Position numbers and translations under genes: made by a program. A stretch of 34,208 nt of DNA from a virus (Duplodnaviria; Heunggongvirae; Uroviricota; Caudoviricetes), in IMG/VR virus record IMGVR_UViG_2778261511_000013; one strand, given 5' to 3'. The notes beneath the pieces were generated by a model. That model had not been told where the DNA came from. It ran no database searches and worked only from the letters and a program-made list of their open reading frames with translations. This document shows, piece after piece, positions 706-34,096 of this stretch. Positions within the stretch are counted from its first letter, which is position 1. Every line of letters starts with the position of its first letter.

Positions 706-759
706 GGTAGATCTCCCTGACAAAAGCAGGGATGATGCCATTTGCTCGTTATTTCTACA

Positions 760-2959: not shown

Positions 2960-3621
2960 GCTCCTACATCAAAACCACTGATGAATTCGTTATCCATATC
3001 AAAACCAAAAAATTTTGAGCCTTCCGATGGGGTTTCCACCGAAGGTGTTTCAATGCCACCCGCCCATACCCCGGCGGCTTTTACTGTGAGATACCCCTGT
3101 TTAATTGCCGCAATTAACTCACGCGATACATCTGAAATATCAGTATCAGGAAAGACCCAGACCGATATCGTCATGTCCTGGTTATCGACTATCTGCATTC
3201 GCAGTCCGGATCCTGCTGTTGCCGCGTCAAGAATTGCCGGAAGCGAATCATTCCGTCCGTCCCAGTTATTAATCGCAATCTTCGCTTTAAGGATGACACG
3301 ATAAGTTTCATCGCTGAGGTACATGTATCCGGAATCAGGATCGTATGGCCCCTGCCATACACCCTGATCATATCCAAGCCCGTCGGTATCCCAGCTGAAA
3401 TAGACACCTGAAATAGGCTGGCTGACAACACGGCTACGTCCGATCCACAATCCCAGAATGTCAAGTTGCACACCAACCGCAGAGTCAATATCAAATGCAG
3501 TAATCAGCCCTCTGGTGGCAGCCGCAACATCAATAAGCGGCCGGGTCATCAGATCAACATGTGCAAGAAATTTAGGTTTGGTGGCGTGGTAGTTCGTGAT
3601 TAGTTCGGTGTATTTGCTCAT
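2941..3621 (-). CDS. baseplate/tail protein (P2 gpI / Mu gp48-like)
   Basis: 226 aa between the baseplate J-like gene and the fibre; position and size; overlaps the upstream stop (ATGA at 3618-3621). Confidence 0.5.
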
Positions 3622-4817
3622 GACTCCACCGTTATAACGATATTTTCCGGGGTACAGGACGCAGATTCGTTGTATCTGATATCAATGTTTGATGACGACA
3701 AAGCCCCCGGGGATTTCCCAATCGTCAGTTCCTGAATATCGTAATAGCGTGCATTCCCGCCACTCACCACGCCAAGATTCGCCGGTGAGTAAATGCGACT
3801 TAAAAGGACCGAATCACCAATCATCAGACTATTGATATAGTCGGAAATAGCCTGCTGGATCTGCTGCCCTATCTGTGAGGTATAACCCGTAAAAACTTTT
3901 AATTTAATCCGGGCATAAACAGGCACATCACTGGAACGCGAAAATTTGATTACATGGGGATTGCCGTATTTATCCGGAACCGTAACGGATGTTGTACCGT
4001 GAGTGGCTGTTCCCTGGCCTTTATTCCCTCTGATAGCCTGAGCAATATCCGTCACATCACCGCCATCCACAATTACAGCAACAGAGTGTGGCGGTAACCC
4101 GTTACCGTCCTCCGAACCATTATCGTTTTCATAGAGTTTGTGGCGGGTTACACCGGTAACATTAGAAACAGCACCATTCAGTGCTTCAAATGGGGTTATT
4201 GATGGCAACGCAACACTTTGCGACTGTCGGATACGTAACTCCGCATCAGTTTCTGCCGGAGTGCCCACAGTAGCCGCAGCAGGATTGGTTACCGAAACCC
4301 AGCCACGGGTTGGCGTATTAATTTCAGTGATAGTTCCAGCCAGCGCCGCCACTGCACCACTGACGGAACATGTTGCGGTCACCATCACTGTACCATCCAC
4401 GCCGACCACCACTGAAGCAGGCAAACGCCATATCACATTATTACTGTCTTTCACGCTGCCATTAATGATGGTTGTTCCGGCAGTTCCTGTAAGAAGCAAA
4501 TCAACCGTAGAGTTCGTCGCGCCTTTACGTGAAATACCATTTATTTTCACGTTACTGGTCAGTGCAGCCCCATAGCCAGTTGCTGGTGAAAAACAGTTGT
4601 AGACAGTTATCGCCATATTATTGGCATCATGAATCGCCAGCGCCATCAGAGCCACCATCTGGCCGTCTTTGCTGTCCGGTTCGAGGTAGGCATCACTGCC
4701 ATAAATCTGCTGAAAATAGCTAATCAGGGTGCTGAGTATCGTCTGATAATCAGGCGCACTGATCCCCTCCGCGGTTACCTTTGCAGATAAACCGAGAGAA
4801 TCAAGGTTCAGAGCCAT
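3618..4817 (-). CDS. baseplate J-like protein (P2 gpJ / Mu gp47 family)
   Basis: 399 aa; size, synteny (W-like, J-like, I-like, fibre) and general resemblance to baseplate J. Confidence 0.6.
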   Translation of the reverse strand: MALNLDSLGLSAKVTAEGISAPDYQTILSTLISYFQQIYGSDAYLEPDSKDGQMVALMALAIHDANNMAITVYNCFSPATGYGAALTSNVKINGISRKGATNSTVDLLLTGTAGTTIINGSVKDSNNVIWRLPASVVVGVDGTVMVTATCSVSGAVAALAGTITEINTPTRGWVSVTNPAAATVGTPAETDAELRIRQSQSVALPSITPFEALNGAVSNVTGVTRHKLYENDNGSEDGNGLPPHSVAVIVDGGDVTDIAQAIRGNKGQGTATHGTTSVTVPDKYGNPHVIKFSRSSDVPVYARIKLKVFTGYTSQIGQQIQQAISDYINSLMIGDSVLLSRIYSPANLGVVSGGNARYYDIQELTIGKSPGALSSSNIDIRYNESASCTPENIVITVES

Positions 4818-5170
4818 TACGCCTCCGATGTAACAGTCGTTATTCCATAAAGAGTGTCGATTTCAGCGGAAAACATGACACGTCGGGTCGTGGTATCCAC
4901 CGTCGTATTGAAAGAGAGGATTGATTTAACGCCCTGCGTTTCGAGGATGCGCTTACGGATCGCCAGGTTGTAGGTTTCCGGCTTCTGCTTACCGAGTACG
5001 GACTGGATCCACGGAGTCCCCTCGGTGGTGTCGAGAAACCATTGCCCATACCACAATTCGAATCGCGTTTTTACCGCCTGCGCCACGGCCTCCGGTGAGT
5101 TAATCAGCCAGGTGTCATCACCGCTGCCAAAGGTGTAATCGCCATCGGCGTCTTCACGTCTGTATCGCAT
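4817..5170 (-). CDS. baseplate wedge protein (gp25/W-like)
   Basis: 117 aa immediately upstream of the J-like gene with ATGA overlap; canonical position. Confidence 0.5.
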   Translation of the reverse strand: MRYRREDADGDYTFGSGDDTWLINSPEAVAQAVKTRFELWYGQWFLDTTEGTPWIQSVLGKQKPETYNLAIRKRILETQGVKSILSFNTTVDTTTRRVMFSAEIDTLYGITTVTSEA

Positions 5171-5922
5171 CAGTTTACTCCGTCGGTATTGCTTCCACCG
5201 CGCTGAACACCACCATGAGTGTGCGTATCATCAATTGGCTTGCCGTTAGCCTTCACGCTACCCAAAAACTCAACAGCACCAGTGATTTTTGAAGCCACAC
5301 CAGAAACCACAGACCCCACCATGCCACCCATCCAGGTTAACAGGCCATGAATGGTTACTTTCTCAGAAAAATCAGCCAGAGGGGCAACCACATCAAGACC
5401 ACCCGGAGCGACAATTTTAATTTTCCTGGTATCAGGATTAAGCTCAAAATAGGTGCTGCCGTCATCACTACGCAACTGTGTGGCACTGGTATTAATACCG
5501 CTAATCTTCCTTGCCTGCGACTGGGGACCGACAATACAAAACGCATCCGATAAATCATGCATTCTGTCATCGACCGGCTCCTGTATCCCGCCGCTCTGCC
5601 ACCAGAAATCAATACAACGATCGGCAAAAATCATCAAACATTCATCACCGGCTTTAACTGGGAACGTTAGCGTGCATCCTCCGCCGCGCGGGAATACCAC
5701 TGGCACATCCACCAGCAATGGGTAATTTTGGGTAATGCGGTTGCCGTCATTATCCTTTTCAACCGAACGGATAGCAGGCTGCACAACTGCCGTCACCGCA
5801 TCAGGATCGAATGACTGAATAATGCCAGGCAAGGCGACACGGATCTGGTTCTTTGTTGTTTCCCGTTCAGATTTGAATGTTTCGGCAAGGTCGCCGCTGC
5901 GGGTCTGGTCAGATACGGCCAT
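5170..5922 (-). CDS. baseplate spike/assembly protein (gpV / Mu gp45-like)
   Basis: 250 aa; Gly/Val-rich C-terminal tip region; position before the W-like gene. Confidence 0.5.
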   Translation of the reverse strand: MAVSDQTRSGDLAETFKSERETTKNQIRVALPGIIQSFDPDAVTAVVQPAIRSVEKDNDGNRITQNYPLLVDVPVVFPRGGGCTLTFPVKAGDECLMIFADRCIDFWWQSGGIQEPVDDRMHDLSDAFCIVGPQSQARKISGINTSATQLRSDDGSTYFELNPDTRKIKIVAPGGLDVVAPLADFSEKVTIHGLLTWMGGMVGSVVSGVASKITGAVEFLGSVKANGKPIDDTHTHGGVQRGGSNTDGVN

Positions 5923-5937
5923 TTAGTAGGCTCCAGA

Positions 5938-5968
5938 AAGCAAAAAACCCGCCTGGTGGCGGGTTTGA
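5938..5968 (-). terminator. rho-independent terminator (likely bidirectional) ending the tail moron
   Basis: Minus strand AAACCCGCC-ACCA-GGCGGGTTT followed by TTTTTTG; + strand stem followed by TTTGATTTAT. Confidence 0.7.
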
Positions 5969-5983
5969 TTTATAAGAACTTCA

Positions 5984-6157
5984 CTAACTATCTTTCTTGG
6001 GAAAAGTTGAAGGCTTGTCGTGATAGCTTTCCGTCATAATTTCGATATCCCCGAAAGGTACTCTAGCCATAATCTCTTGCTCATAGTTATCTAGGAAAGA
6101 GACCTCAGGCTCACTTGGTTTAGGTTGTGGTTCATTTTGGTCTTCTGGACAGGACAT
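5984..6157 (-). CDS. small acidic Pro/Glu-rich protein (57 aa), unknown function
   Basis: Translated by hand: MSCPEDQNEPQPKPSEPEVSFLDNYEQEIMARVPFGDIEIMTESYHDKPSTFPKKDS; ATG 2 nt after the upstream stop; missed by the 60-aa ORF cutoff. Confidence 0.45.
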   Translation of the reverse strand: MSCPEDQNEPQPKPSEPEVSFLDNYEQEIMARVPFGDIEIMTESYHDKPSTFPKKDS

Positions 6158-6159
6158 AT

Positions 6160-6690
6160 TCAAACCTTACTTATTAACATGCACGTTACAGAAATAATAA
6201 AAAATACAAATGACATAACCATCCATCGAAACAACTCATTTACAAACGCTGATTTTTCTTTATGGATTTTCTCGATTCTATCAATAGCCCTACCATACAT
6301 TATCAAATGAAATCTGACTGTGTCATCTCTACTACCCCTCAGAAGAAATTCATGTTGTTCAGGTGTTCGATGCACAGGCATTTTGGGAATATTTCTAAGT
6401 TCCCAACATTTCCATAAATAATAAAAACAAAAAACCAAACATACAAAACATGAACATAGACACAATAGAGACAATCTTGCGGATAGACTAGTCTTTAACT
6501 GTTGTCCCAGCTCAAAGGACCCAAAAACGGCTAATAATGCAGAAATCTCAACACCAAGCACAGCAAGAAGAAAATTAGCTTTGTCCTCTAACCGCCTGTA
6601 TGTTGTCTTAACTTCTTCATACCTGTCTCTCGAGTACGACAAAATCGTATCTACTTCAAGGCCAACAGCCTCATTCCTTTGATTGCACAT
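6160..6690 (-). CDS. three-helix inner-membrane protein (176 aa), unknown function; moron cargo
   Basis: Hydrophobic segments FLLAVLGVEISALLAVFGSF, LSLLCLCSCFVCLVFCFYYLW and VMSFVFFIISVTCMLI; markedly AT-rich compared with flanking tail genes. Confidence 0.6.
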   Translation of the reverse strand: MCNQRNEAVGLEVDTILSYSRDRYEEVKTTYRRLEDKANFLLAVLGVEISALLAVFGSFELGQQLKTSLSARLSLLCLCSCFVCLVFCFYYLWKCWELRNIPKMPVHRTPEQHEFLLRGSRDDTVRFHLIMYGRAIDRIEKIHKEKSAFVNELFRWMVMSFVFFIISVTCMLISKV

Positions 6691-6696
6691 ATTGTA

Positions 6697-7050
6697 TTAA
6701 TCGTCAACCTTCTTACAAGGAAACGAACCTATGATTCTCGGCGCATCCATGCTGTTCTGCAGTAGTTGGACATTCAAGAAACGCGTTTCGGTACCCGGAC
6801 GGCGAATGAACTCGAAACCGTAATTGTTACCGTCTTTGGCTGGCATAAGCCCCATATCCGCCTTCATTCCATTACCGTTGCCGAGCGTTTTGATTTTCTG
6901 GGAGGTAACTGTCTCACCATTAATCCTGAACAATGAATCAGGAATCAACTCTAATTTGTAGCCACCACACTGAAGCGTGACACCGCCAGGATTCGCAGCA
7001 AATGCGAACCCCGGAAGGAAACAGAGTCCAATAACAATCCACTTTTTCAC
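6697..7050 (-). CDS. secreted/periplasmic small protein (117 aa) with cleavable signal peptide, unknown function
   Basis: GTG start with strong SD (GAGGTAGGA); N-terminus (M)KKWIVIGLCFLPGFAFA|ANP has an AxA signal-peptidase I site; two Cys in the mature part. Confidence 0.55.
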   Translation of the reverse strand: MKKWIVIGLCFLPGFAFAANPGGVTLQCGGYKLELIPDSLFRINGETVTSQKIKTLGNGNGMKADMGLMPAKDGNNYGFEFIRRPGTETRFLNVQLLQNSMDAPRIIGSFPCKKVDD

Positions 7051-8117
7051 TATCCTACCTCACGCTGTAAAGACGACGCCGAACGAAGATCCGCCGCACC
7101 GCGCGCTTCGCACATCATATCCATGTACCACGCCTGGCCCCTTGTGTCGCCAGTGTACATAATCCCGCGCACAATATAAACGCCATCCGTTGCGATGCTG
7201 GCAGGCTGCGATATGGTGCCGCTTAGCGTAATATTTCCGTCCGTGTTCTGGTCGGTGATCTGCCCACCAGCCATAGCGATATCGTTGTTCGACAACGCGG
7301 TGCGATATACGGAAGCCTGATCCAGTTGAATGAGCCCATTAACCCGGATGTTCGGATTAATAAGCGCGCGGACGTTTACGCCGTTGCCGATGGTCTGCTG
7401 CGGCATGCCAATAAGCCCGGTAGCGCTGTTGAGCACAATCGCTTCGTGAACATATTCATTATTCACCACCATCTGGCGCTGACCATCCACGAATTGCCAT
7501 GTTGCGCCACATTGCCCGGCTACGTTATCCATTAGATGCCGCGTCATGCCAAAGAGCACCCGCCCCCGGGGGAATACAGTAGCAGGCATTTCAGGCGTCA
7601 GGCCTTCGGTCGCACCTTTGGCTTCGAAGTCTTTCATCAGCGCACGGTTCACATCAGCGACCGTGTAACCGGCAGCCAGCGTCTGTGAGGTTATACTGGT
7701 GGCAAAAGCCAGATCAGTATCTGCTGCCTGAATCAGGACGTAGGAATCAACCGGACTGTCTTTTCCTGTGACCGAGTAGCGAATTTCACCGCTGAAAATC
7801 AGTCCGTAGTTGCGGCCATCTCTCTGGCCCACGTCCGCCGCGTCAACTTCCCGCACGGTCCCTACGTCGCTTGCTGACACCTCCGGCGCGATACCGTCGT
7901 AACCGGCAATCAGACGCACTTTCGAAAATTCCTGCCCGGTGATTCGGTTCACAGTATCTGCCGAGAGGTTATAAATTTTGATAGTCCCTACCCGGGACGC
8001 GCTGCTGATGTTGAACCAGTCGATCGTAAAGGTGACTTTGAAATCACTTAGCTCAATTCCCTGACCGTTCCCGTCCACAAGCTGCAGCTCGAAATGTCTC
8101 ATCCAGTTCTGTGACAT
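7050..8117 (-). CDS. baseplate hub protein (Mu gp44 / P-like)
   Basis: 355 aa; position after the tape measure and small tail proteins. Confidence 0.45.
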   Translation of the reverse strand: MSQNWMRHFELQLVDGNGQGIELSDFKVTFTIDWFNISSASRVGTIKIYNLSADTVNRITGQEFSKVRLIAGYDGIAPEVSASDVGTVREVDAADVGQRDGRNYGLIFSGEIRYSVTGKDSPVDSYVLIQAADTDLAFATSITSQTLAAGYTVADVNRALMKDFEAKGATEGLTPEMPATVFPRGRVLFGMTRHLMDNVAGQCGATWQFVDGQRQMVVNNEYVHEAIVLNSATGLIGMPQQTIGNGVNVRALINPNIRVNGLIQLDQASVYRTALSNNDIAMAGGQITDQNTDGNITLSGTISQPASIATDGVYIVRGIMYTGDTRGQAWYMDMMCEARGAADLRSASSLQREVG

Positions 8118-8119
8118 GC

Positions 8120-8422
8120 TTACTCCGTTGATACCAGTAAATGACTGAGGCCGCCCAGATCAGTTTTCGTGGGATAATCCTGTGTGTTGTCATCGCAGAC
8201 CACCACCAGCTTAAAACCAAGTCCCATACAGGCGTACTGCGCCAGCAGGTCAGCACCAGTGACGAGAGGAATACCGGAGATTACCGGCTCCCCTCTGTCG
8301 TTCTGCAGGTCCATAATCCAGTACAGATCGCGCCATATGATGCTAATCCGCCAGGTAACACCACCCAGGACGATGCTGAACTGCTGGTTGTCCGCTGTCA
8401 GCGGAATTTCCTGAATTGTCAT
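8120..8422 (-). CDS. tail protein (100 aa)
   Basis: Tightly packed ORF in the tail operon. Confidence 0.4.
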   Translation of the reverse strand: MTIQEIPLTADNQQFSIVLGGVTWRISIIWRDLYWIMDLQNDRGEPVISGIPLVTGADLLAQYACMGLGFKLVVVCDDNTQDYPTKTDLGGLSHLLVSTE

Positions 8423-9009
8423 TAGCCGCCCCCCAGTAATGACGCCACGTTACCCGTGATGCTTTTCAGCAGTGAAGTATCTGGAGGCTTGGTGGTTTTG
8501 TTGCCGCTGTTCTGTACCGCCGACGTGCTAGCCCCTTCCTTCATGTTGGTTTTATCCGCGACGGTAATCTGCTGCGTCCGGGAGATAAGGACCTCCCTCA
8601 GGGTGAGGACGGCGGACAGGACGTTTTCGGTTGTCTTGTCCGTCGTCACTTCCAGCGCCCGGATCAACATGTTGCTGTACAGTCGTTTACCGGTTACCAC
8701 ATCGAAGGGGATACGGCTTTCCTGCAGATCCAGTAGCTCCTGATACGTCTGCTGAGGACTCAGGCCGAGCAGGCTGGTAGCCGTCAGATTACTGGCAAAA
8801 TCCAGCAATGCGCCGCCACCGGCGAAACCAACCTCCATCACCACTTCTGACGGTTTTTTATAGGCATGATCAGCGACAGCGGCCCCAACCTCTACCGGAT
8901 GCTCTGTTATTTCAAGCATATCTGTATGCTTCTCTGAAATAACAACACTGGGAACAATCATTCCTATTTTTCTGCTCTGCTGATGAAAAAGTGTAGAGAG
9001 AATATCCAC
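8422..9009 (-). CDS. tail protein (195 aa)
   Basis: Overlaps neighbouring genes by a few nt; directly downstream of the tape measure. Confidence 0.4.
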   Translation of the reverse strand: MDILSTLFHQQSRKIGMIVPSVVISEKHTDMLEITEHPVEVGAAVADHAYKKPSEVVMEVGFAGGGALLDFASNLTATSLLGLSPQQTYQELLDLQESRIPFDVVTGKRLYSNMLIRALEVTTDKTTENVLSAVLTLREVLISRTQQITVADKTNMKEGASTSAVQNSGNKTTKPPDTSLLKSITGNVASLLGGG

Positions 9010-10997
9010 TAACCCACCCTCACCTGATTACTTCGCATGACCTGAGCATTTGCAGACTGTTGCCGACGTGCAACCTCATTACCGACAGCGTGCGGATCTC
9101 CACCACCGTAAATGTGGTAGGTATTTTGCTGGTTAACCTCTGTCATTTTGCCACTAATTCCCGCCACGGCAGCCTTATTAATCAGCTCTCGAGAATAGAT
9201 ATTTCTTCCATTTTCATGCTGGATAATGCTGCTCATCAATGCTGACATGGTTTGCGGATCGCTCATATTCAGGGCAGCCCGGGGATCCACTCCCAGTCGT
9301 TGCGATACAGCCCTGATATACGCAGTTGTGTTGTTATTATCAGACGCAGGTGCCCAGGTAGAGATAATTTTCTCCACACTGTTTATTCCCCGTCCGGCGT
9401 ACAGCATTAACTGACGAGCAAGAGCCCGTAATCCATCAAAAGCAGTTTCAAATCTGGCAAATCGCCCGCCCGGGCGTTCAAGAGAAGCCCCTGCCTGACC
9501 AGCAAAATTAAGGTTTCCCGGATTGTTATTCCGTTCTCCTCGTTTCGTAGCCTGTGCATATTGTTCCGGCTCATCATCACCAAACCAGCCGCGTACCGTC
9601 CGGCCCACACTGCGGGGATCGAATCCCCAGTGCTCTTTAATCCAGTCGGCAGTACTGTTAGCGCTGTCTGTAACCATCGGCATCGCTGACGGATTTTCGC
9701 TGCCCTGATTAAGTATCTGTTTGCCGATGATGACGGCATCAGCCCAGCGGCCATCTTTGATAGCGTTGAGCAGGTCGGCGATCATGTTCAGCATTTTGCT
9801 GAATTCGCCCATCTGGTCGATGAAGTTGCTGAAATCCCACTTCAGGGACCATGATTTTGGGTCAATATTGAGCAGTTTCGCCAGCGCTTTCGCCAGTTCA
9901 TTAACAGACCCTTTCAGGTCACGAACCATCTTCAGCGCGGCATCGACCTCCGGCTTCCACTTGCCCCAGTCAATCAGGCTGTCGCCGCCTTCCTTCCAGG
10001 TCTGATAGTCCTCCCACAGAAGGGCAATCCCCGCCGCCAGCGCGGTAATGAGACCAATCGGCGACATCCAGAACGTACTGTTCAGAATGCGCAGCGCAAT
10101 CGTCAGCGCGCCAAACAGCGAGATGAGCTCCCGCGTTTGCTTATCCAGCGATTGCCACCAGGTGATAAGGCTGGATGTTCCCTCAATTAGCCTGAAGAAC
10201 AGCCGCCCGATGATGTCTCCGATCGCCAGAATGCCTTTTATGGCTTTCGTCAGGGTCTGCTCGATACGAGGGAAGTTGTCCAGGATATGGCGGCGCAGGG
10301 TGTCCAGCGAACCCGCAAGCCCACCCGCAAGATTAGAGCCGATTTTGTCACGGGCCATGCCTGCCATCGCGCCGAACTCGCGCAGGGAGGTCATGAATTT
10401 GTTGGAGCTTCTGGCCGCCTCGTCAGCATTGAAGCCGATAGCTTTCGCCATTGCGCTGTACTGCCCGGAGAACCCCCCCACACCCCGGCGCATCGCCATA
10501 AGGGTATTTTCGTCAATGCCCAGCATCTGCGCATACTGGTTAGCCCGGTAATACGGCATGCTGCTGAGCTTCTGGCCGACGCCCGTAAAGATAGCGGCCA
10601 TGTCGCGCATGTTACCGCTGGCGTCACGGGTCTGTACCCCCAGACGATTCAGAAATCCCTCCGCCCCGGGGTTATTACGGATAAAACGGGCAAGGCTCTC
10701 CAGTGACCCGCGCGCAGCGTCCACGCTGCCGCCAACCTGCGAAACCGCATAGCCAATAGACTGAATTCCCTGGACTGTCGCGCCGGTGCGCTGTGACGCC
10801 CAGTAAAGATTATCCAGGCCGGAGGCGATCTTAGCCGTGAAGGCCACCACGGACAGCGCAGCTCCTTCAACGGCCAGTCCCATTTTGATGACATTTGCAG
10901 TTGTACCGGCGAGGACAGAACCGAACTTTTTCGCTCCTGCATCATCCACACTGAAGCCAAGCGAGACGAGGAAATCTTTAATAGTTTCAGCGTTCAT
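9009..10997 (-). CDS. tail tape measure protein
   Basis: About 660 aa, Ala/Gly-rich with predicted helical and hydrophobic segments; start MNAETIKD at 10997 overlaps the stop of the frameshifted chaperone extension. Confidence 0.75.
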   Translation of the reverse strand: MNAETIKDFLVSLGFSVDDAGAKKFGSVLAGTTANVIKMGLAVEGAALSVVAFTAKIASGLDNLYWASQRTGATVQGIQSIGYAVSQVGGSVDAARGSLESLARFIRNNPGAEGFLNRLGVQTRDASGNMRDMAAIFTGVGQKLSSMPYYRANQYAQMLGIDENTLMAMRRGVGGFSGQYSAMAKAIGFNADEAARSSNKFMTSLREFGAMAGMARDKIGSNLAGGLAGSLDTLRRHILDNFPRIEQTLTKAIKGILAIGDIIGRLFFRLIEGTSSLITWWQSLDKQTRELISLFGALTIALRILNSTFWMSPIGLITALAAGIALLWEDYQTWKEGGDSLIDWGKWKPEVDAALKMVRDLKGSVNELAKALAKLLNIDPKSWSLKWDFSNFIDQMGEFSKMLNMIADLLNAIKDGRWADAVIIGKQILNQGSENPSAMPMVTDSANSTADWIKEHWGFDPRSVGRTVRGWFGDDEPEQYAQATKRGERNNNPGNLNFAGQAGASLERPGGRFARFETAFDGLRALARQLMLYAGRGINSVEKIISTWAPASDNNNTTAYIRAVSQRLGVDPRAALNMSDPQTMSALMSSIIQHENGRNIYSRELINKAAVAGISGKMTEVNQQNTYHIYGGGDPHAVGNEVARRQQSANAQVMRSNQVRVG

Positions 10998-11232
10998 TAT
11001 CCTCTCTCCATTTCTCAATGCGCCGCTGGTTATCCGCTTTTACCGCCAGATGGTCATTCAAGAGAGCAATGTCATACAAATCGACAGAGCCATCTTTAAG
11101 TGCTGTATAGGGAATTAACCCGGCGTCAACCGGATTGAGAAGGTAGGACAGCCCGTCCGGCAGGCTGTTAAACGTCAGCCCTGTTGCAGGCTCTGCGTCG
11201 TGCTGGTAAGGGGTGTAGGCAAAAAATTTCCC
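10987..11232 (-). CDS. -1 frameshift extension of the tail assembly chaperone (lambda G-T analogue)
   Basis: Tandem slippery heptamers G_GGA_AAT and T_TTT_TTG (minus strand 11232-11220) in the zero frame, 17 codons before the chaperone stop; the -1 frame stays open for about 79 codons and ends with TGA overlapping the tape-measure ATG. Confidence 0.55.
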   Translation of the reverse strand, partial: GKFFAYTPYQHDAEPATGLTFNSLPDGLSYLLNPVDAGLIPYTALKDGSVDLYDIALLNDHLAVKADNQRRIEKWREDNER

Positions 11233-11627
11233 AGCGAATCGGCGACCACCCGCGCCACCAGATGAAGCATGACCAGCAAGTCAATATCATCAAACATCAG
11301 TTCGCCCTGGGTAAATACCGGAACCCATCCGTCCATATGACGCCGCGACACCACCGCAAGACAGGGATGAATAATCGCATCGGTGTCATCTTCGGTCAGG
11401 GAAGACAGTTCCTCAGCGATACGCGGGAGCATGGTTTCAAACACCGGTTTTAACTGCTCGAATTTCACGGTGTCGATTTTGCCGTCAGCAGGCAAACGGG
11501 AGCGAATGCTCCCGAAATCTGACATCATTCCCGCCAGTACCGGCAGAAGTTTGCGGGTCACTTTCAGCTGGTCAAAAACGCTGAGTTTTGCCACGCGATA
11601 TTTCACGCCTTTGATTTCGAATTCCAT
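11175..11627 (-). CDS. tail assembly chaperone (zero-frame product)
   Basis: 150 aa between the tube and tape-measure genes; carries the slippery site near its 3' end. Confidence 0.6.
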   Translation of the reverse strand: MEFEIKGVKYRVAKLSVFDQLKVTRKLLPVLAGMMSDFGSIRSRLPADGKIDTVKFEQLKPVFETMLPRIAEELSSLTEDDTDAIIHPCLAVVSRRHMDGWVPVFTQGELMFDDIDLLVMLHLVARVVADSLGNFLPTPLTSTTQSLQQG

Positions 11628-11630
11628 GCA

Positions 11631-12071
11631 TTAAAACTCCCCGAGAACCTGGTCAATCTTGCCGCAGTCAAACACCCACGGCATCGTATTACCGGTTTTA
11701 GCGTTGGCGTTATCCGGTTGTTTCTGGAACGCAACACTGCGTGCCGTGATGATGTCGCCGCTGACCTTGTTGCGGATCACGATAACGTTATTCCCCCATG
11801 TGGCAGAAGACTGGCTCTGTGCGTTATACGCCAGCGACAATTTTTTATTTGTCGATGATGTCTTCAGAAGGTTAACGGTAATCGTCCCGCTTTTATCTGC
11901 ATGGAGACTGTGCATCACTTCGCCATCAGCACCGATGGTCATGGTGTTTTTAGGACCGCCCATCGCAACCACAATCCCCTCTTCAGAACTTGCAGAACCG
12001 TACCCGAGGTCAATCGAACCGGTCGGGCCGGTCAGCGTCGCAGTGACATCCATAAAAGAATAGGTAGACAT
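11631..12071 (-). CDS. tail tube protein
   Basis: 146 aa directly downstream of the sheath-sized gene. Confidence 0.5.
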   Translation of the reverse strand: MSTYSFMDVTATLTGPTGSIDLGYGSASSEEGIVVAMGGPKNTMTIGADGEVMHSLHADKSGTITVNLLKTSSTNKKLSLAYNAQSQSSATWGNNVIVIRNKVSGDIITARSVAFQKQPDNANAKTGNTMPWVFDCGKIDQVLGEF

Positions 12072-12081
12072 TCACTTCCCC

Positions 12082-13227
12082 TTAGCGAACAACGTTAATC
12101 TGTACGTCAGCGTAATGAACCGCGCCTGCAAGTTTTATTGCAGCCTGAATCACCGGAGCCTTACGGGCTTCACGTTCTGATTGTGCCTGTTCATCCAGCG
12201 GCTGGGCGTATACGTAATAACCTTTGGGCAGCGTGTCACCTGATGACAACTGACCAAGGTCGCCACCGTTCCATACGCCCGGAGCAATCAGTCCATTCTG
12301 AACGGCCTGATCCAGTGATTTTTCAACATTTGATAACAGTCGGGTAATACCGGCTTCAGTCTGGGGAACCTTCGTGGTGCTGGTATAAAGCAGGTTATAG
12401 AGGTTGGTCTGCACATAATTCTGTAACCAGTCCAGGCCGTGGCGTTCATCAAAGAAATCGCCGTTAGCCATCACTCCCTGCTGGAGGATAGCTGTATCAT
12501 TCTGGTAGTACACGAACACATTGCAGTTTTTTGCATCAAGTGCCGATGCCTGGCTGACTGTCAGTGTTTCATACCCGACACCCGGCTCCTGCTTAAACTT
12601 GAGCGTAATCGCGGTATTACTGCCATTGAAATTAACCGTGAATGCCCGGCCAAATGCAGATAACGCAGCGTATTTACTACCCGATGAATATTGAATAAAA
12701 CTGCGTGAATATCCGGCGGTTTTCAGTTTTGATGCCAAATCATCGCTGGATGCAGTCTGCAGGCATTTCTCATCGCTTGTCGTAATCGCCAGAATACGGC
12801 TTACAGAAGAGGATTCGATCGCCGCAGCCACTTTCAGCCAGTCTGCATCCGGAATATCTTCATCGTCTGCAATCCCCAGCCCATACCATGAAGTATAATC
12901 GAGCATGGCATTCACAGCCTGCTCCAGCGTCTCAGGCGTGGCCTGTTCGCTGTCTCCCTTCGTTTTCACCCAACGACCAACAAAAACCTCCTGAGGTTTC
13001 GGTGATTGAGAGAAAAACACCTGCGCAGCCTTATATTCTGGTGATTCCACGCCAAAATCTTTTCCAATATCTTCCGCGGCAGAATAACGGCGAATGCGCT
13101 CACTTACCGGAATGATTGTGGACGGGCCGAGAATGAGTAATGCACCAAAATTTCGCCCTGATGCTGCACGCGGCGACATGATCACATCAACATTAACAAC
13201 GTTTGATACAGGCAAGCCCTGTGCCAT
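12082..13227 (-). CDS. tail sheath protein (putative)
   Basis: 381 aa preceding the tube gene in a tail with J/W/V baseplate genes, which implies a contractile tail. Confidence 0.45.
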
Positions 13228-24727: not shown

Positions 24728-24804
24728 ATGGTGCTGGTTAACGGACTTGAACCGCTACCCATTCGCTTACAAGGCGACTGCTCTACCATTGGAGCTAAAC
24801 CAGC
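24728..24804 (-). tRNA. tRNA, anticodon UGU by manual fold (tRNA-Thr)
   Basis: GCTGGTT-TA-GCTC-CAATGGTA-GAGC-A-GTCGC-CTTGTAA-GCGAA-TGGGT-AGCGG-TTCAAGT-CCGTT-AACCAGC-A-CCA; perfect 7-bp acceptor stem, good D and T arms, encoded CCA. Confidence 0.7.
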
Positions 24805-24809
24805 ATATT

Positions 24810-24884
24810 TGGCGGGACAGCGTGGACTCGAACCACGATAAGAAGGTTAACAGCCTTCCGTAATGACCTTTATACGACTGACCC
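24810..24884 (-). tRNA. tRNA-like gene, anticodon GUU by manual fold (tRNA-Asn-like), possibly degenerate
   Basis: GGGTCAG..GAAGG-CTGTTAA-CCTTC..CGTGG-TTCGAGT-CCACG-CTGTCCC-G-CCA; good anticodon and T arms, but a T:T mismatch in the acceptor stem and a weak D stem. Confidence 0.45.
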
Positions 24885-28313: not shown

Positions 28314-29690
28314 TCATACGTCAGCCCCTTGTGCATATCGCCTGCCACGTGCAGCGGGTGCATTTGATGTTGTGCAAATCTGTCTGGCTTCATCCTGGTC
28401 ACATGCAACAAAGTGTCCGTTACAGAACCGCTGGTAAACCGTACCAAGCGAGCCAAAACGGTTTTTTGTCACAATGATTTCAGCAAATGGCGCGGCGCTA
28501 CTGTTCTCGTCATATACCGCTTCCCTATAGAGCATGATGATTGAGTCTGCGTCCTGTTCAATGCTTCCTGAATCACGCAAATCTGCGTTTGTCGGGCGTT
28601 TGTTTGGTCGCTTCTCAACATCGCGTGAAAGCTGACTCAGGGAGATAACAGGCGTTTTCAGGTCTTTCGCCATCGCCTTCAGGCTTCCTGAGATGTGAGC
28701 AATTGCGAGGTCGTTGCGATCTGCTTTCGGCTTCTCAATCAGGCCAAGATAATCCGCCATGATGAGTGACAGGTTTGGATTTTCCTGTTTGTGCCGTTCT
28801 GCGATTGAGCGTATTTCTTCGACCGATAACCGCGAGGCATCGACTACCCATACATCCAAATCTGCAAGCTGACTCATGCCGTTAGCAACGCGCGCCCAGC
28901 CTTCGTCATCCATCGATGCAGGATTTCGCAGCACGCTAACCGACATCCTCCCGGCGTTGGCAATACTTCGCTCTGCAATCTGCAATGCGCTCATTTCCAT
29001 CGAGAAAATCAATACTCCGCGCCGGACGTCAGAACCAGGAATAACACGACTTGCAACGCCTTCGGCAATCTTCAGCGCCAGTTCGGTTTTCCCCATACCA
29101 GGACGAGCAGCGATTATCACCAGGTCTTCCGCGTTCATCCCTCCGGTGATGGCATCAAGTTCTTCGATTCCGGTCTTCAGGGTATCTGACTCTTCTCCGT
29201 TCCTCAGACGCCTGTCAAGCGTGTCAGTGTAGTCGGTGATGATTTCCCCTAACCGTACAGGTTTTACCTCGTCACGTGGCTTTCTGATGGCTGAAAGACG
29301 CTTTACCAGCTCGTCCATCGCCTGACTCGATGTATCGATGGTTCCGTTCTGAATTGGTTCACGCATTTCATCCATGATTTCCAGCACCAGGCGGCGGTGA
29401 TAGTTATCCGCGACCATTCCGGCATATCCCTTCAGGTTTGCGGCACTCGGGCAGTTTTTGCTGGTCATCAGGATTGACGTGAAATGCTCCTCTCCGCACG
29501 CCTCGGCAACCATCAGCGCGTCGATTAGGTTTCTGTTTCTCGCCTGCTTGCGGATAACCTCGAAGGCTTTCCGGTAGAGCGGAATTGAAAACGCTTCCGG
29601 CTCCAGCGTTGCCAGAACGTCGCTGGCGGTTGGTGTTAATCCACCAATCAGCAGGCCACCGATAACGCTCGCTTCGATATCCTGTTTCAT
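28314..29690 (-). CDS. DnaB-family replicative helicase (P22 gp12-type)
   Basis: 458 aa; Walker A ..[12 protein letters not shown].., RecA-like C-terminal domain; follows the O-like initiator. Confidence 0.8.
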
Positions 29691-30508
29691 GCAATCCCCC
29701 TGTCTGCAAACTTCCCTTCCCGTACCCCCGTTAACGAGTCATCCCTCAGCAGGTAATCAAAATCGGCCGTCCAGCCCGTGTCGTTGTCTCCGAAGTAAAA
29801 CGGCTTGGCCTGATGCACAAACGCCCTGACATACGCTCTGAAACCGTCCACGTTTGGCGTTTTCAGTTGCGGAATGATTTTCTTCAGGCGGCGTTTTCGT
29901 TTCTCGTTGACCGCAACAGCGTGTGGAAGTCTGTCACCGACTTCGGTGTTGTAGGCGTTCAGGAAGGATTCGTAGTCGATTCGTTCTGCCTTGCGACGTT
30001 CAGGTTTAACCTGCCAATCGCCGCCCCCGTTAGGGGGTAAGGGGGTATTTGTATTTATTGTCTTTTGTATATTGTCTTTTGTGTTTAGCTGACTTGGCTT
30101 ATACCCATTAGCCGACTTGGCTAATGTTTTATTAGCTGTTTTAGCTAATGTTAAGCTGTCCTGGCTAATCCACTGAGAAACCACCTTGTTCACTCCGATT
30201 TTCACGCCATCAGCAATGAGGAATTTACGCTCAATAAGCTGGCGCTTGGCAGCGCAAACATGAGTGTGATGAATACCTGTCATGGCTGCTATCTGCGTGT
30301 TTGTGAGTCGATCCATCGGCTTATTGAATCCGTATGTCTTGCGCATGATAGCGAGCATCACCTTCAACTGCCGGACGGTTAAATCAGCCATCAGCAGACT
30401 GTCGGTAATCTCGTTAGCAACGCGCATGAAACCATCTTCGGTATCTGCCACGCGATGCTCCACGACCTCCAGTTGAGGCCTGTAATCAGCTAACTTAACG
30501 ACGCCCAT
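29687..30508 (-). CDS. replication initiator (lambda O / P22 gp18-like) with internal origin
   Basis: 273 aa; N-terminal O-like HTH region; ori iterons and AT-rich tract lie inside the coding sequence (repeat [15 protein letters not shown] in the protein). Confidence 0.7.
30046..30171. repeat. replication origin: four about 20-bp iterons (30085-30171) plus adjacent AT-rich tract (30046-30085)
   Basis: TTAGCTGACTTGGCTTATAC / TTAGCCGACTTGGCTAATGT / TTAGCTGTTTTAGCTAATGT / TAAGCTGTCCTGGCTAATCC, then TATTTGTATTTATTGTCTTTTGTATATTGTCTTTTG; same layout as ori-lambda. Confidence 0.75.
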
Positions 30509-30690: not shown

Positions 30691-30972
30691 TCAGGCCTCG
30701 AAGAATTCGCCGTTCTTCGGGGCTTTTTCTTTTGTCAGGTAATCGGCAAGCCGCTTAGTCAATTCAGCCATTTCATCGTCTTCGATTCCGTATTCCAGAA
30801 CAGCAAGCATCATGCTTACCTGCGAGAAGAAACCATTCTTCCATCGGCTTACCTGATATTCAGGAACCCCCATTGCTCGAGCGAATGTCTTCTGCCCCAT
30901 CAGTGCCAGTTTGTTCAGCAAGGCTGACTCGATGCGAGCCGCTTTCTTGCTTTTAGTTGCAATAGTACCCAT
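30691..30972 (-). CDS. cII: CII-like transcriptional activator
   Basis: 93 aa; ..ARIESALLNKLALMG..QVSRWK..FSQVSMMLAVLEYG.. parallels lambda CII; position after cro/nutR. Confidence 0.75.
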   Translation of the reverse strand: MGTIATKSKKAARIESALLNKLALMGQKTFARAMGVPEYQVSRWKNGFFSQVSMMLAVLEYGIEDDEMAELTKRLADYLTKEKAPKNGEFFEA

Positions 30973-31088: not shown

Positions 31089-31319
31089 TTAAGCGGACAT
31101 TAATTCAGGCCAGATGCTTTCCCAATCAACCGGATGAAGGTCTTTGCGAGTCACTTCACCATTGCTGAACTTCTCAATCAGAACACAAAGTGCTGCGCCC
31201 AATTCATGATTACGGCTAAGTGCTTTCCTCAAATAGCCGATAGAAGTTCCGCACTTGGTGGCAAATTCTCTCTGCTCTTCCAGTGAAAGGGAGTTCAGAT
31301 ACAAGCGGAGTTCTTCCAT
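31089..31319 (-). CDS. cro: Cro-like repressor (HTH)
   Basis: 76 aa; SD GGAAGGAG; divergent from cI across the operator region; ..CGTSIGYLRKALS.. HTH-like. Confidence 0.7.
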   Translation of the reverse strand: MEELRLYLNSLSLEEQREFATKCGTSIGYLRKALSRNHELGAALCVLIEKFSNGEVTRKDLHPVDWESIWPELMSA

Positions 31320-31329: not shown

Positions 31330-31427
31330 CTTCCCGTTGTTGAATAAGATGAGTTTACCTGTAGGTAAAAAGCAAATCAATACCCATAGGTTATTTACCG
31401 GCAGGTAATCAAAGATAGAATTAAATC
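31330..31427. promoter_or_regulatory. oR/pR/pRM region: three 16-bp operator dyads TTTACCnnnnGGTAAA and divergent promoters
   Basis: Operators at 31354-31369 (TTTACCTGTAGGTAAA), about 31378-31393 (ATACCCATAGGTTAT) and 31394-31409 (TTTACCGGCAGGTAAT); pR -35 TTGATT / -10 TAAACT on the minus strand; pRM -10 TAGAAT (31416-31421) 6 nt before the cI ATG (leaderless-like). Confidence 0.65.
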
Positions 31428-32114
31428 ATGGATAAATACGAACAAAGACGACTAAGGCTGATAGAGATAAGAGACCGATTCTGTAATGGAAAGGCCTCAG
31501 AGTTGGCTCGTCGAATAGAAAGGGAACCATCATACGTTTCCAGAATGCTGTATCCGGAAGGAAAAAGCGGAAAAAAACGCATTGCTGACGATATGATGGA
31601 ACTAATTGAAAAATCTTTTAATCTCCCACGCGGATGGATGGACATGCTTGCAGATGGTAAAGCTGGAGCTACGGACCATCTTGAGTTTGCGGGTAACGTT
31701 CGTGCGGGTTTTGTTCCGGTAATTGGTGAAGCCGTTTTGGGAGTTGATGGCTCAGTGGATATGATTGAATTCAGATCCGGTTGGTTAAGCATCTACAGCG
31801 GCGATAAAGATGCTTACGGTCTGAAGGTTAAGGGTGACAGCATGTGGCCAAGGATTCAGTCAGGAGAATATGTTGTTATTGAACCAAATACGCCAGTACA
31901 TCCAGGTGATGAAGTCTTTGTAAGGACCAAAGACGGTCACAACATGATAAAGATCATGAACAAAACAAGAGACGGTGATTATCAGTTTAGTAGCATAAAC
32001 AGTGATCACCGCCCAATCACTCTTCCTGTTGAAGAAGTTGATAAAATGCATTTTGTTTCAGCTATTGTGAAACACACCAGGTACGTAGACCAGGACGATC
32101 TGCCAAAAGTTTGA
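31428..32114 (+). CDS. cI: CI-type prophage repressor (HTH + LexA/S24 autocleavage domain), not lambda immunity
   Basis: 228 aa; C-terminal ..GDSMWP..(S).. and ..GDEVFVRTKDGHNMIKI.. (Ser-Lys dyad domain); divergent to cro across the operators. Confidence 0.8.
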   Translation: MDKYEQRRLRLIEIRDRFCNGKASELARRIEREPSYVSRMLYPEGKSGKKRIADDMMELIEKSFNLPRGWMDMLADGKAGATDHLEFAGNVRAGFVPVIGEAVLGVDGSVDMIEFRSGWLSIYSGDKDAYGLKVKGDSMWPRIQSGEYVVIEPNTPVHPGDEVFVRTKDGHNMIKIMNKTRDGDYQFSSINSDHRPITLPVEEVDKMHFVSAIVKHTRYVDQDDLPKV

Positions 32115-32128
32115 GGATAAAGCAGCAA

Positions 32129-32425
32129 ATGTTTATACCCGGCATAGTAGTCGCTGTTGTAATCATCTGCTTCATATGGGCAAAGTTATCTCCTGTAAGC
32201 TCTAAGCATACAGCTGAACTCATGAGGAAGAAGAATCTTATACATGAGGCAGAATCGATAATTAAAAAGTTCAAAGGCATGTCATACGACGACATGTCAT
32301 CAGAGCAGATTGCTATGTATAAATGCGCCATTGAGCGCCTTGACTACTTAAACGGACTCAAACCAAAACACACCCCAGTAGAATCAAAATTGCCGCAATG
32401 GCCAAGCAATCCAAATAGCTTCTGA
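32129..32425 (+). CDS. small single-pass membrane protein in the cI operon (rex/sie position), unknown function
   Basis: ATG at 32129 with SD GAGGA; MFIPGIVVAVVIICFIWAKL.. N-terminal TM then a charged about 75-aa domain; followed by a terminator. Confidence 0.55.
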   Translation: MFIPGIVVAVVIICFIWAKLSPVSSKHTAELMRKKNLIHEAESIIKKFKGMSYDDMSSEQIAMYKCAIERLDYLNGLKPKHTPVESKLPQWPSNPNSF

Positions 32426-32435
32426 CATCTCCTTT

Positions 32436-32460
32436 CAGCCCGCAAAGCGGGCTTTTTTAT
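32436..32460 (+). terminator. rho-independent terminator ending the cI operon
   Basis: CAGCCCGC-AAA-GCGGGCT followed by TTTTTTAT. Confidence 0.8.
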
Positions 32461-32477
32461 ATCAATAAAAAAATTAA

Positions 32478-32600
32478 TTACCTGAAAATTCAAGCAGGTA
32501 AACTCTCACATCAATTTTATTTACCCATGGGTATAGACATGAGTTTTACCTGTAGGTATATTTTAAGCCATCAGAAGGACGCACTGACCACCATGAAGGT
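32478..32600. promoter_or_regulatory. oL/pL region with operator dyads
   Basis: TTTACCCATGGGTATA (32520-32535) and TTTACCTGTAGGTATA (32545-32560), plus a degenerate TTACCTG..CAGGTAA element at 32478-32501; immediately upstream of nutL and N. Confidence 0.55.
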
Positions 32601-32805: not shown

Positions 32806-33132
32806 ATGGATGCACAAACACGCCGCCGCGAACGTCGCGCAGAGAAACAGGCTCAATGGAAAGCAGCAAATCCCCTGTTGGTTGGGGTAAGCGCAAAACC
32901 AGTTAACCGCCCTATTCTCTCGCTGAATCGCAAACCGAAATCACGAGTAGAAAGCGCACTGAATCCGATAGACCTTACAGTGCTGGCTGAATACCACGAA
33001 CAGATTGAAAGCAACCTGCAACGTATTGAGCGCAAGAATCAGCGCACATGGTACAGCAAGCCACGCAGTGAAATGGGTGTGACTTGTGTTGGTCGCCAGA
33101 AAATGAAATTAGGCAGCAAACCACTTATTTGA
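32806..33132 (+). CDS. N: antiterminator N (lambda-type)
   Basis: MDAQTRRRERRAEKQAQWKAANPLLVGVSAKPVNRPILSLNRKPKSRVESALNPIDLTVLAEYH.. matches lambda N including the Arg-rich motif; the ORF-track start at 32755 is an upstream extension. Confidence 0.9.
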   Translation: MDAQTRRRERRAEKQAQWKAANPLLVGVSAKPVNRPILSLNRKPKSRVESALNPIDLTVLAEYHEQIESNLQRIERKNQRTWYSKPRSEMGVTCVGRQKMKLGSKPLI

Positions 33133-33859: not shown

Positions 33860-33931
33860 GCGCAGCGTTACCGCATACCAATAACGCTTCACTCGAGGCG
33901 TTTTTCGTTATGTATAAATAAGGAGCACACC

Positions 33932-34096
33932 ATGCAATATGCCATTGCAGGGTGGCCTGTTGCTGGCTGCCCTTCCGAATCTTTACTTGAACGAATCACC
34001 CGTAAATTACGTGACGGATGGAAACGCCTTATCGACATACTTAATCAGCCAGGAGTCCCAAAGAATGGATCAAACACTTATGGCTATCCAGACTAA
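33932..34096 (+). CDS. cIII: CIII (FtsH inhibitor)
   Basis: 54 aa by hand translation: MQYAIAGWPVAGCPSESLLERITRKLRDGWKRLIDILNQPGVPKNGSNTYGYPD; SD AAGGAG; matches lambda CIII as recalled. Confidence 0.8.
   Translation: MQYAIAGWPVAGCPSESLLERITRKLRDGWKRLIDILNQPGVPKNGSNTYGYPD

What the first reader, a model, noticed from the sequence alone, without database searches (positions are those of the whole stretch)
32129..32460. Small membrane protein co-transcribed with the cI repressor (rexAB/sieB position)
The gene directly downstream of the repressor, terminated by a strong hairpin, is where prophages place lysogen-expressed exclusion or abortive-infection functions. Here lambda rexA/rexB are replaced by one roughly 98-aa single-pass membrane protein I do not recognise. 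Its expression from pRM in the lysogen would make it a constitutive host-protective factor.
Basis: partly seen in the sequence, partly recalled or inferred. Interest (0 to 1): 0.55.

Follow-up and report, generated by a model that had tools for sequence, protein, structure and literature searches.

The report
Small membrane protein behind cI repressor
A real, conserved but uncharacterised 98-residue membrane-anchored protein sits directly behind the prophage repressor gene, in a slot where related phages carry anti-phage genes, so it is a credible but untested candidate for a new phage-exclusion protein.

Summary
A 98-codon ORF (32129-32425, +) starts 14 nt after the cI stop. It ends 11 nt before a strong hairpin plus T-run terminator (32437-32458), and lies upstream of oL/pL and gene N. 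This is the immunity module of coliphage mEp043, where the gene is annotated "hypothetical" (phrog_10450, unknown function).

The gene is real:
- Relatives at 33-44% identity share its length, start and pattern.
- All 33 close copies examined are intact.
- dN/dS is about 0.1-0.2.

All nine members examined have one N-terminal hydrophobic helix with no K/R before it and 2-6 after. This predicts a short N-terminus outside and a roughly 75-residue two-helix domain in the cytoplasm, with invariant C66 and W91-P92. No Pfam, PADLOC, NCBIfam, PDB or fold match was found.

The family occupies two slots. One is after cI. The other, in P22-like phages, lies between the tailspike or mnt gene and gene 16, where P22 carries sieA. 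Behind related cI genes the same slot holds BstA and other cargo. The protein diverges about five times faster than its cI.

A protective role in the lysogen is plausible by context only. It is not RexAB, SieA, SieB or HK97 gp15. Interest is moderate.

The parts
31355..31408 (.). oR operators (TTACCTGTAGGTA at 31355-31368 and TTACCGGCAGGTA at 31395-31408) between cro and cI
   Evidence: The pattern TTACCNNNNGGTA has 6 matches in the window against 0.15 expected by chance. All lie in the oR or oL regions.
31394..31421 (+). pRM-like promoter, TTTACC-16-TAGAAT. Its -10 ends 6 nt before the cI ATG, so the cI mRNA is probably leaderless as in lambda.
   Evidence: Promoter scan, 9 of 12 matches. The geometry is read from the sequence. 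The lambda analogy is from established knowledge and is an inference.
31428..32114 (+). cI repressor (228 aa) with an S24 autopeptidase domain; mEp043 immunity type
   Evidence: Pfam Peptidase_S24 E 1.4e-17 and phrog_4 repressor. It is 100% identical to mEp043 cI.
32113..32117 (+). GAGGA Shine-Dalgarno-like motif overlapping the cI stop codon, 11-12 nt upstream of the ATG (long spacing)
   Evidence: Read from the sequence and conserved in close alleles.
32129..32425 (+). The 98-aa gene (mEp043_049 homologue; phrog_10450)
32132..32188 (+). Codons 2-20: N-terminal transmembrane anchor (FIPGIVVAVVIICFIWAKL)
   Evidence: Mean Kyte-Doolittle hydropathy 2.53. There are no K/R residues before it and 4 in the 15 residues after it. 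AlphaFold helix 5-20.
32189..32422 (+). Codons 21-98: predicted cytoplasmic domain. Helix 25-47, helix 58-76, and a C-terminal tail with invariant W91-P92 (32399-32404). Invariant residues are M56, C66, A67 and L71.
   Evidence: Alignment A1. AlphaFold2 mean pLDDT 82.5. Charge distribution.
32437..32458 (+). Intrinsic terminator closing the cI-orf unit (tImm analogue)
   Evidence: An equivalent hairpin plus T-run is present in L008, L011 and L015.
32477..32502 (.). Conserved inverted repeat ATTACCTG-N10-CAGGTAAA between the terminator and oL. The arms resemble operator half-sites but the spacing is longer. Role unknown.
   Evidence: Alignment A3. It is flagged as terminator-like on both strands in L011.
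32521..32562 (+). oL operators (32521-32533 and 32546-32558) and pL-like promoter TAGACA-17-TATATT (32534-32562). This is the downstream boundary of the slot.
   Evidence: PL is annotated at the same place in mEp043.

Best explanation
The gene is an accessory cargo gene of the mEp043-type immunity module. It is transcribed with cI from pRM (and from pRE during establishment) and ends at its own terminator.

It encodes a bitopic inner-membrane protein. The extreme N-terminus crosses the membrane once, from outside to inside. A compact domain of about 75 residues (two helices plus a tail) sits on the cytoplasmic face.

The most likely job is protection of the lysogen from other phages at the inner membrane. 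The favoured mechanism is interference with genome delivery (superinfection exclusion), in the manner of HK97 gp15 or P22 SieA. The conserved cytoplasmic domain would be the active part and the variable helix only an anchor.

What is shown: the gene is real and under purifying selection; the operon layout; the family; the two genomic slots.

What is inferred: expression in lysogens, topology, and any anti-phage function or target.
For: Real gene:
- Relatives at 33-44% identity span the full length.
- 33 of 33 close copies are intact.
- dN/dS is 0.11-0.20.

Operon:
- There is a 14-nt gap after cI.
- No terminator or better-than-chance promoter lies between cI and the gene.
- A strong terminator follows it. 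The same layout is seen in L008, L011 and L015.

Topology: all 9 members have 0 K/R before the single hydrophobic helix and 2-6 K/R in the 15 residues after it. All share the conserved Cys (C66); six of the nine have no other Cys in the soluble part.

Which part is conserved: the conserved residues lie in the soluble domain, and the helix is variable.

Context:
- Behind cI homologues of 78-83% identity, the same slot holds BstA (PADLOC E 6.7e-122 and 1.2e-117), IrrE+DUF4411, and other small membrane proteins.
- Published work describes the cI-N interval as a moron hotspot with rexAB and bstA transcribed from the repressor promoter (PMC8585504, PMC7067206).

Second slot: in P22-like phages the relatives lie between the tailspike or mnt gene and gene 16. 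P22 carries sieA exactly there, and those phages lack a SieA homologue.

Fast divergence: cI is 83-85% identical where the small protein is 41-44% identical (dN 0.55-0.60 against 0.10-0.13).

Precedent: HK97 gp15 is a 62-aa protein with the same N-terminal anchor plus helix build, and it blocks DNA entry.
Against: - No experiment exists on this gene, and no paper mentions it.
- No match to any PADLOC, Pfam or NCBIfam model.
- Guilt by position is weak evidence, because these slots also carry non-defence cargo.
- In the cI slot the family was found only with one cI lineage: 29 of 29 loci where cI is at least 97% identical, 3 of 5 at 83-85%, and none at 78% or below. This could instead mean a function tied to that repressor.
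- A mostly cytoplasmic protein is not the obvious design for blocking entry.
- Promoters for the P22-like copies could not be identified.
Confidence: 0.45

Rival explanations
1. It is a non-defence lysogen function. It could be a small membrane-tethered modulator of a host inner-membrane protein (transport, stress or envelope physiology, like many small bacterial membrane proteins). Alternatively it could be a helper of this particular cI/cro switch, affecting establishment, repressor stability or induction.
For: In the cI slot the family is strictly linked to one cI lineage. There is no composition break from cI: GC is 0.40-0.43 on both. It has no promoter of its own. The conserved cytoplasmic domain is well placed to bind membrane-proximal host proteins. 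Nothing resembles a defence protein.
Against: Relatives occur without any adjacent cI, next to the ejection-protein genes of P22-like phages. This argues for an autonomous function. The slot is swapped for BstA and other cargo behind related cI genes, so cI does not need this protein. One allele is a pseudogene in an otherwise intact immunity region. The protein diverges about five times faster than cI, which is unusual for a core regulatory partner.
Confidence: 0.28
2. It is a one-protein abortive-infection or membrane effector. The cytoplasmic domain senses an infecting phage product, and the protein then oligomerises through its helix to depolarise or permeabilise the membrane. This would be RexB-like in outcome.
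For: It occupies the same slot as rexAB and bstA, both abortive-infection systems. It has a membrane anchor plus a cytoplasmic domain. Its fast divergence is compatible with sensing a phage protein.
Against: It has one poorly conserved transmembrane helix and no partner gene. RexB has four transmembrane helices and needs RexA (established knowledge). The helix sequence is the least conserved part, which is unexpected for a pore former. There is no PADLOC hit.
Confidence: 0.15
3. Translation starts at TTG 32111, overlapping the cI stop. This gives a 104-aa protein whose basic N-terminus (MRIKQQ) turns the helix into a signal anchor or signal peptide, placing the domain in the periplasm. That is the usual side for injection blockers.
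For: The TTG overlaps the cI TGA, a coupling arrangement. One automated annotation and some database entries use 104 aa. The SD-to-ATG spacing for 32129 is long.
Against: All diverged relatives begin at M-[FYW]-I-[PS]. In L008 an in-frame stop lies two codons upstream of that start. mEp043 and 6 other copies keep a GTG start at exactly this position. K/R enrichment after the helix holds family-wide.
Confidence: 0.07
4. It is not a functional gene but a chance ORF or decaying remnant. Most RefSeq annotations leave it out.
For: PGAP annotates nothing here in nearly all of the 52 complete E. coli genomes that carry it. One relative is a pseudogene.
Against: The family is conserved across the full length down to 33% identity. 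33 of 33 close copies are intact. There is purifying selection and a confident AlphaFold model.
Confidence: 0.02

Closest known systems
HK97 gp15 (YebO-like moron protein; superinfection exclusion at the inner membrane)
   Same: It is a small prophage-expressed protein with a hydrophobic helix at the extreme N-terminus, followed by basic residues and a helical soluble part. It is closed by its own terminator and is a cargo gene in a lambdoid phage.
   Different: There is no sequence relationship (hhalign probability 1.5%). It is 62 aa rather than 98 aa. gp15 sits in the tail operon with its own promoter, whereas this gene is behind cI without one.
P22 SieA
   Same: It is an inner-membrane, prophage-expressed protein. 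Relatives of the window protein occupy the same slot (between gene 16 and mnt or gene 9) in P22-like phages that lack sieA. SieA's best conserved motif is also predicted to be cytoplasmic.
   Different: SieA is 162-164 aa with three transmembrane helices and the motif FxRYPxEAxxFNK. hhalign probability is 0.7%. The window copy lies in a myovirus-type lambdoid prophage, not a P22-like one.
Lambda RexAB
   Same: It occupies the identical genomic position: after cI, before pL, and closed by a terminator. It is presumed to be transcribed from pRM.
   Different: RexAB is two genes, a soluble RexA and a four-helix membrane protein RexB (established knowledge). Here there is one gene with one helix, and no family match.
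BstA (BTP1 and relatives)
   Same: It sits in the same slot behind homologous S24 cI repressors and ends with a terminator. It is found in that slot in L051 and L086.
   Different: BstA is about 305 aa, soluble, and an abortive-infection protein with a DNA-based self-immunity element. There is no similarity.

Membership tests
phrog_10450 (unnamed phage protein family, function unknown) | Full-length match to the family profile | tested here: met
   E 3.7e-54, residues 1-98 against profile positions 1-98 of 98
Lambda RexAB | Two-gene unit: RexA (about 279 aa, soluble) plus RexB (about 144 aa, four transmembrane helices) | tested here: not met
   There is a single 98-aa ORF between cI and the terminator, with one hydrophobic helix. 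No Pfam or PADLOC hit.
Lambda RexAB | Position between cI and pL, on the cI strand, closed by a terminator | tested here: met
SieB (lambda/P22) | Sequence match to the SieB family, and location in the pL operon downstream of N | tested here: not met
   No Pfam family at E up to 1. The gene lies upstream of pL. Lambda sieB is annotated downstream of N.
P22 SieA | About 160-200 aa, three or four transmembrane helices, motif FxRYPxEAxxFNK (PMC10883804) | tested here: not met
   98 aa and one helix. hhalign probability 0.7% against P22 SieA. The motif is absent from alignment A1.
P22 SieA | Located between genes 16 and 9 of a P22-like prophage | tested here: not met
   The window copy is behind cI in a sheath-and-baseplate prophage. 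The feature is met only by distant relatives in N7, L009 and L016.
HK97 gp15 / YebO | Sequence similarity to YebO-family N-terminal region | tested here: not met
   hhalign probability 1.5%, covering only 16 hydrophobic columns
BstA | Match to the BstA profile (about 300 aa) | tested here: not met
   No PADLOC hit for the window protein, whereas cargo in the same slot in L051 and L086 scores E 1e-117 to 1e-122
Moron (Juhala et al. 2000 sense) | Own terminator | tested here: met
Moron (Juhala et al. 2000 sense) | Own promoter and base composition different from neighbours | tested here: not met
   The only promoter-like site between the pRM-like site and the gene start is a 9/12 match inside cI (31737-31765), no better than chance. 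GC is 0.40-0.43, the same as cI.
Superinfection-exclusion proteins in general | Expression in the lysogen and reduced infection by other phages without cell death | not testable with these tools
   Requires transcript mapping and phage challenge experiments

The most novel reading that the evidence does not exclude
This is the founding member of a new family of single-pass inner-membrane superinfection-exclusion proteins that act from the cytoplasmic face. Different temperate enterobacterial phages install it either behind cI or in the sieA slot next to the ejection-protein genes. Its rapidly evolving cytoplasmic hairpin, with the W-P tail, would bind the incoming DNA-delivery conduit or the host inner-membrane protein that the conduit uses.
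Probability: 0.3. Interest if true: 0.55.

Novelty: new variant of a known kind. Interest (0 to 1): 0.4.

Why it matters
Prophage genes expressed together with the repressor are the most direct way a resident phage changes its host. Only a few occupants of the cI-N slot (rexAB, bstA and a few others) have been studied.

This protein is carried by about 1% of complete E. coli genomes (52 of 5426). The identical sequence was seen on 453 contigs. It also occurs in Shigella, and a diverged allele group (~43% identical) in Cronobacter. Most RefSeq annotations omit it, and some gene callers truncate its relatives.

If it proves to be an exclusion factor, it would add a new, very small protein family acting at the inner face of the membrane. 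It would also give a handle on how phage DNA crosses that membrane. If it proves to be something else, it is still an unannotated lysogen-expressed membrane protein worth adding to annotation pipelines.

Tried and rejected
- Pfam, PADLOC and NCBIfam scans of both the 98-aa and 104-aa versions found nothing significant.
- A PDB sequence profile search found nothing at E up to 1.
- Foldseek against BFVD and PDB gave no hit at E up to 0.001.
- An exhaustive HMMER scan of 1.84 billion representative proteins found only 11 hits. Three of these (P0008, P0012, P0015) are long repetitive proteins with several short matches. I set them aside as composition or repeat artefacts without following them up.
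- The search for related loci failed with the full alignment because no stretch was conserved enough. It found nothing with P0006 in viral contigs, and nothing with the group-2 alignment in one-genome-per-species contigs.
- L008 and L009 gave no match in the E. coli genome set; L016 matched only over its ejection-protein (gene 16/20) segment at about 77% identity, not over the small gene. Their hosts are unidentified, presumably other enterobacteria.
- Promoter and terminator scans around the P22-like copies gave nothing above chance, so their transcription units are unresolved.
- The antisense ORF 32062-32331 (89 aa) was dismissed because it has no support.
- Lipoprotein was rejected: the VIIC context is not a lipobox (-1 is Ile), and the cysteine is not conserved (Phe in P0002).
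- Literature searches on mEp043, the accession numbers and the PHROG id found no paper on this gene.

Full report
**What is there.**
- The right end of the window is a lambdoid early region read in the lambda-leftward direction.
- On the minus strand lie a DnaB-like helicase (28314-29690), an O-like initiator (29687-30508), cII (30691-30972) and a cro-like gene (31089-31319).
- On the plus strand lie an S24-type cI repressor (31428-32114), the ORF in question, and lambda-type N (32806-33132), followed by DUF2528 and cIII.
- The ORF runs from ATG 32129 to the stop at 32423-32425, giving 98 aa.
- It starts 14 nt after the cI stop. GAGGA overlaps that stop.
- An intrinsic terminator follows 11 nt after the ORF: stem 32437-32453, 6 of 7 pairs G-C, then a T-run; -12.6 kcal/mol, z = -3.15.
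- Two operators (TTACCNNNNGGTA) and a TAGACA-17-TATATT promoter lie at 32521-32562. Two more operators and a pRM-like TTTACC-16-TAGAAT lie upstream of cI.
- The operator pattern occurs 6 times in the window against 0.15 expected by chance.
- The -10 of the pRM-like site ends 6 nt before the cI ATG, which is the geometry of leaderless lambda cI (inference by analogy).
'sieB position' is not correct, since lambda sieB is in the pL operon beyond N.

**Identity of the module.**
- The cro-cI-orf-pL region is 98.5% identical to coliphage mEp043. There the ORF is mEp043_049, annotated 'hypothetical protein'.
- It is a full-length member of phrog_10450, function unknown.
- 52 of 5426 complete E. coli genomes carry it, always on the chromosome behind the same cI. 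PGAP leaves it unannotated in nearly all of them.
- The exact protein has been seen on 453 contigs and is named 'hypothetical' everywhere. It also occurs in Shigella; a diverged (~43% identical) allele group occurs in E. coli and Cronobacter.
- No paper in the library mentions the gene.

**Is it a real gene?** Yes.
- An exhaustive HMMER scan of 1.84 billion representatives found a very small family of about eight clusters. A profile search recovered the same set.
- Members are 97-114 aa and align end to end.
- M56, C66, A67, L71, W91 and P92 are invariant. M1, I3, H27, K34, I38, E40, A41, Y64, R70, L74 and L88 are nearly so.
- All full-length members start M-[FYW]-I-[PS].
- In L008 an in-frame stop lies two codons upstream of that start. 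In mEp043 and six other copies the start is GTG at the same position. The start is therefore 32129, not the TTG at 32111.
- Among 33 close copies the 98-codon frame is intact in all.
- Between close alleles dN/dS is 0.11-0.20, like cI at about 0.1.

**Anatomy of the protein.**
- Every one of nine members examined has a single hydrophobic stretch at the very N-terminus (mean hydropathy 1.65-2.88).
- There are no K/R residues before it and 2-6 K/R in the 15 residues after it. All nine share the conserved Cys (C66); three have one additional Cys in the soluble part.
- By the positive-inside rule (established knowledge) this predicts N-terminus out and the remaining 75 residues or so in the cytoplasm.
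- AlphaFold2 with the family alignment gives mean pLDDT 82.5: helix 5-20, helix 25-47, helix 58-76 and an ordered tail.
- Conservation is concentrated in the two soluble helices and the W-P tail. The membrane helix is variable. The helix therefore looks like an anchor and the soluble domain like the working part (inference).

**Where relatives live: position A, directly behind a cI.**
- The examples are L008 (44% identity), L011-L014 (43%; gene callers truncated it to 63 aa, but the full 98-aa frame is present) and L015 (a pseudogene with a stop after codon 33).
- In all of these, a hairpin plus T-run, a conserved inverted repeat and oL/pL follow the gene as in the window.

**Where relatives live: position B, in P22-like phages.**
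- Here the gene lies between the tailspike or mnt side and gene 16, converging on gene 16. The examples are phage N7 ORF14, L009 and L016. L010 has it next to gp7- and gp20-like genes.
- P22 has sieA in exactly this place.
- N7 has an Mnt homologue upstream and no SieA homologue.
- SieA itself is unrelated. It is 162-164 aa with three transmembrane helices and the motif FxRYPxEAxxFNK (PMC10883804). hhalign probability is 0.7%.

**The slot is a cargo hotspot.**
- I fetched 80 IMG/VR loci with cI homologues.
- Of the 29 loci with cI at least 97% identical that extend far enough, all carry the gene. At 83-85% identity, 3 of 5 do. At 78% or below, none do.
- The slot then holds other cargo: BstA in L051 and L086 (PADLOC E 6.7e-122 and 1.2e-117), an IrrE-type peptidase plus DUF4411 pair (L081), a ParA-like ATPase (L090), an SDH-type protease (L053), and other small membrane proteins (L043, L094).
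- This agrees with published statements that the cI-N interval is a mosaic hotspot for accessory loci such as rexAB and bstA, and that bstA is transcribed from the cI promoter (PMC8585504, PMC7067206).

**Rate of change.** Where the neighbouring cI proteins are 83-85% identical, the small proteins are only 41-44% identical (dN 0.55-0.60 against 0.10-0.13). Recent alleles are nevertheless under purifying selection. This fits a protein that tracks a changing partner, or alleles exchanged by recombination. It does not fit a core partner of cI.

**Most likely mechanism.**
- I commit to a lysogen-expressed, membrane-anchored accessory protein that protects against other phages at the inner membrane, most likely by disturbing genome delivery.
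- The supports are position (twice over), architecture and a precedent. HK97 gp15 is 62 aa with an N-terminal helix, then basic residues and a helix, and it blocks DNA entry. It is not homologous (hhalign probability 1.5%). SieA's conserved motif is also on the cytoplasmic side.
- Confidence is 0.45 for a defence role in general and about 0.3 for an entry block specifically.
- The rivals are a non-defence or cI-linked function (0.28), a one-protein abortive-infection effector (0.15), and a periplasmic protein started at the TTG (0.07). A spurious ORF (0.02) is effectively excluded.

**What failed or stayed open.**
- No promoter for the P22-like copies could be recognised.
- The hosts of L008, L009 and L016 are unidentified; L008 and L009 have no match in the E. 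coli set, and L016 matches it only over its ejection-protein genes at about 77% identity.
- Two locus searches found nothing.
- Topology, expression and function are all untested.

**Verdict.**
- The gene is already in databases as a hypothetical protein.
- As a candidate it would be a new variant of a known kind: a small prophage membrane protein in a repressor-linked cargo slot.
- Interest is moderate.

Noticed in passing
window 32477-32502: A conserved inverted repeat, ATTACCTG-N10-CAGGTAAA, lies between the terminator and oL. Its arms look like operator half-sites but with 10-nt spacing instead of 4. It is conserved in L008, L011 and L015, and in L011 it scores as a terminator-like hairpin on both strands. 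It could be a third, atypical operator or a second or bidirectional terminator.
   Followed up: partly
RefSeq E. coli loci L005 and L006; L011-L014: PGAP leaves the 98-aa gene unannotated in almost all of the 52 complete E. coli genomes that carry it. Other gene callers truncate the group-2 allele to 63 aa even though a full 98-aa frame with the conserved start is present.
   Followed up: yes
L015 4875-5168: One allele is a pseudogene: there is a stop after codon 33, and the remaining 55 codons continue from a downstream ATG. The surrounding cI, terminator and pL are intact.
   Followed up: partly
L051 3350-4267; L086 3045-3965; L081 3254-4881: Behind cI homologues of the window repressor, the same slot carries BstA in two loci and an IrrE/M78 peptidase plus DUF4411 pair in another.
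   Followed up: yes
window 1-741 (-): A 246-aa ORF matches a DNA-invertase N-terminus at residues 13-49 and a Mom-like DNA-modification protein at residues 73-217. This is an odd fusion or remnant at the tail-fibre end of the prophage.
   Followed up: no
window 24729-24884 (-): Two tRNA genes (Thr-TGT and Asn-GTT) lie between the Q antiterminator gene and the lysis genes.
   Followed up: no
window 33919-33977 and 33932-34096: The lambda cIII thermoregulator RNA element (Rfam RF01804, 88.5 bits) overlaps the start of a lambda-type cIII gene.
   Followed up: no
window 3618-13227 (-): The prophage has a tail sheath, baseplate hub and wedge, and a 669-aa tape measure with a C-terminal lytic-transglycosylase/endolysin-like region. 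It is therefore a lambdoid-regulated myovirus, not a lambda-like or P22-like virion.
   Followed up: partly
L043 3309-3710; L003 (Sf101) 2538-2942; L094 2997-3155: Other unrelated small proteins of unknown function occupy the cI-downstream slot in related phages: 133 aa and 52 aa with clear hydrophobic segments (L043, L094), and a 134-aa Sf101 protein whose hydropathy was not checked. Small proteins may be a recurrent type of cargo here.
   Followed up: no
P0008 and P0012: Two proteins of about 1300 aa gave 5-8 repeated short matches to residues 18-71 at E 1e-8 to 1e-11. This is probably coiled-coil or repeat composition, but it was not examined.
   Followed up: no
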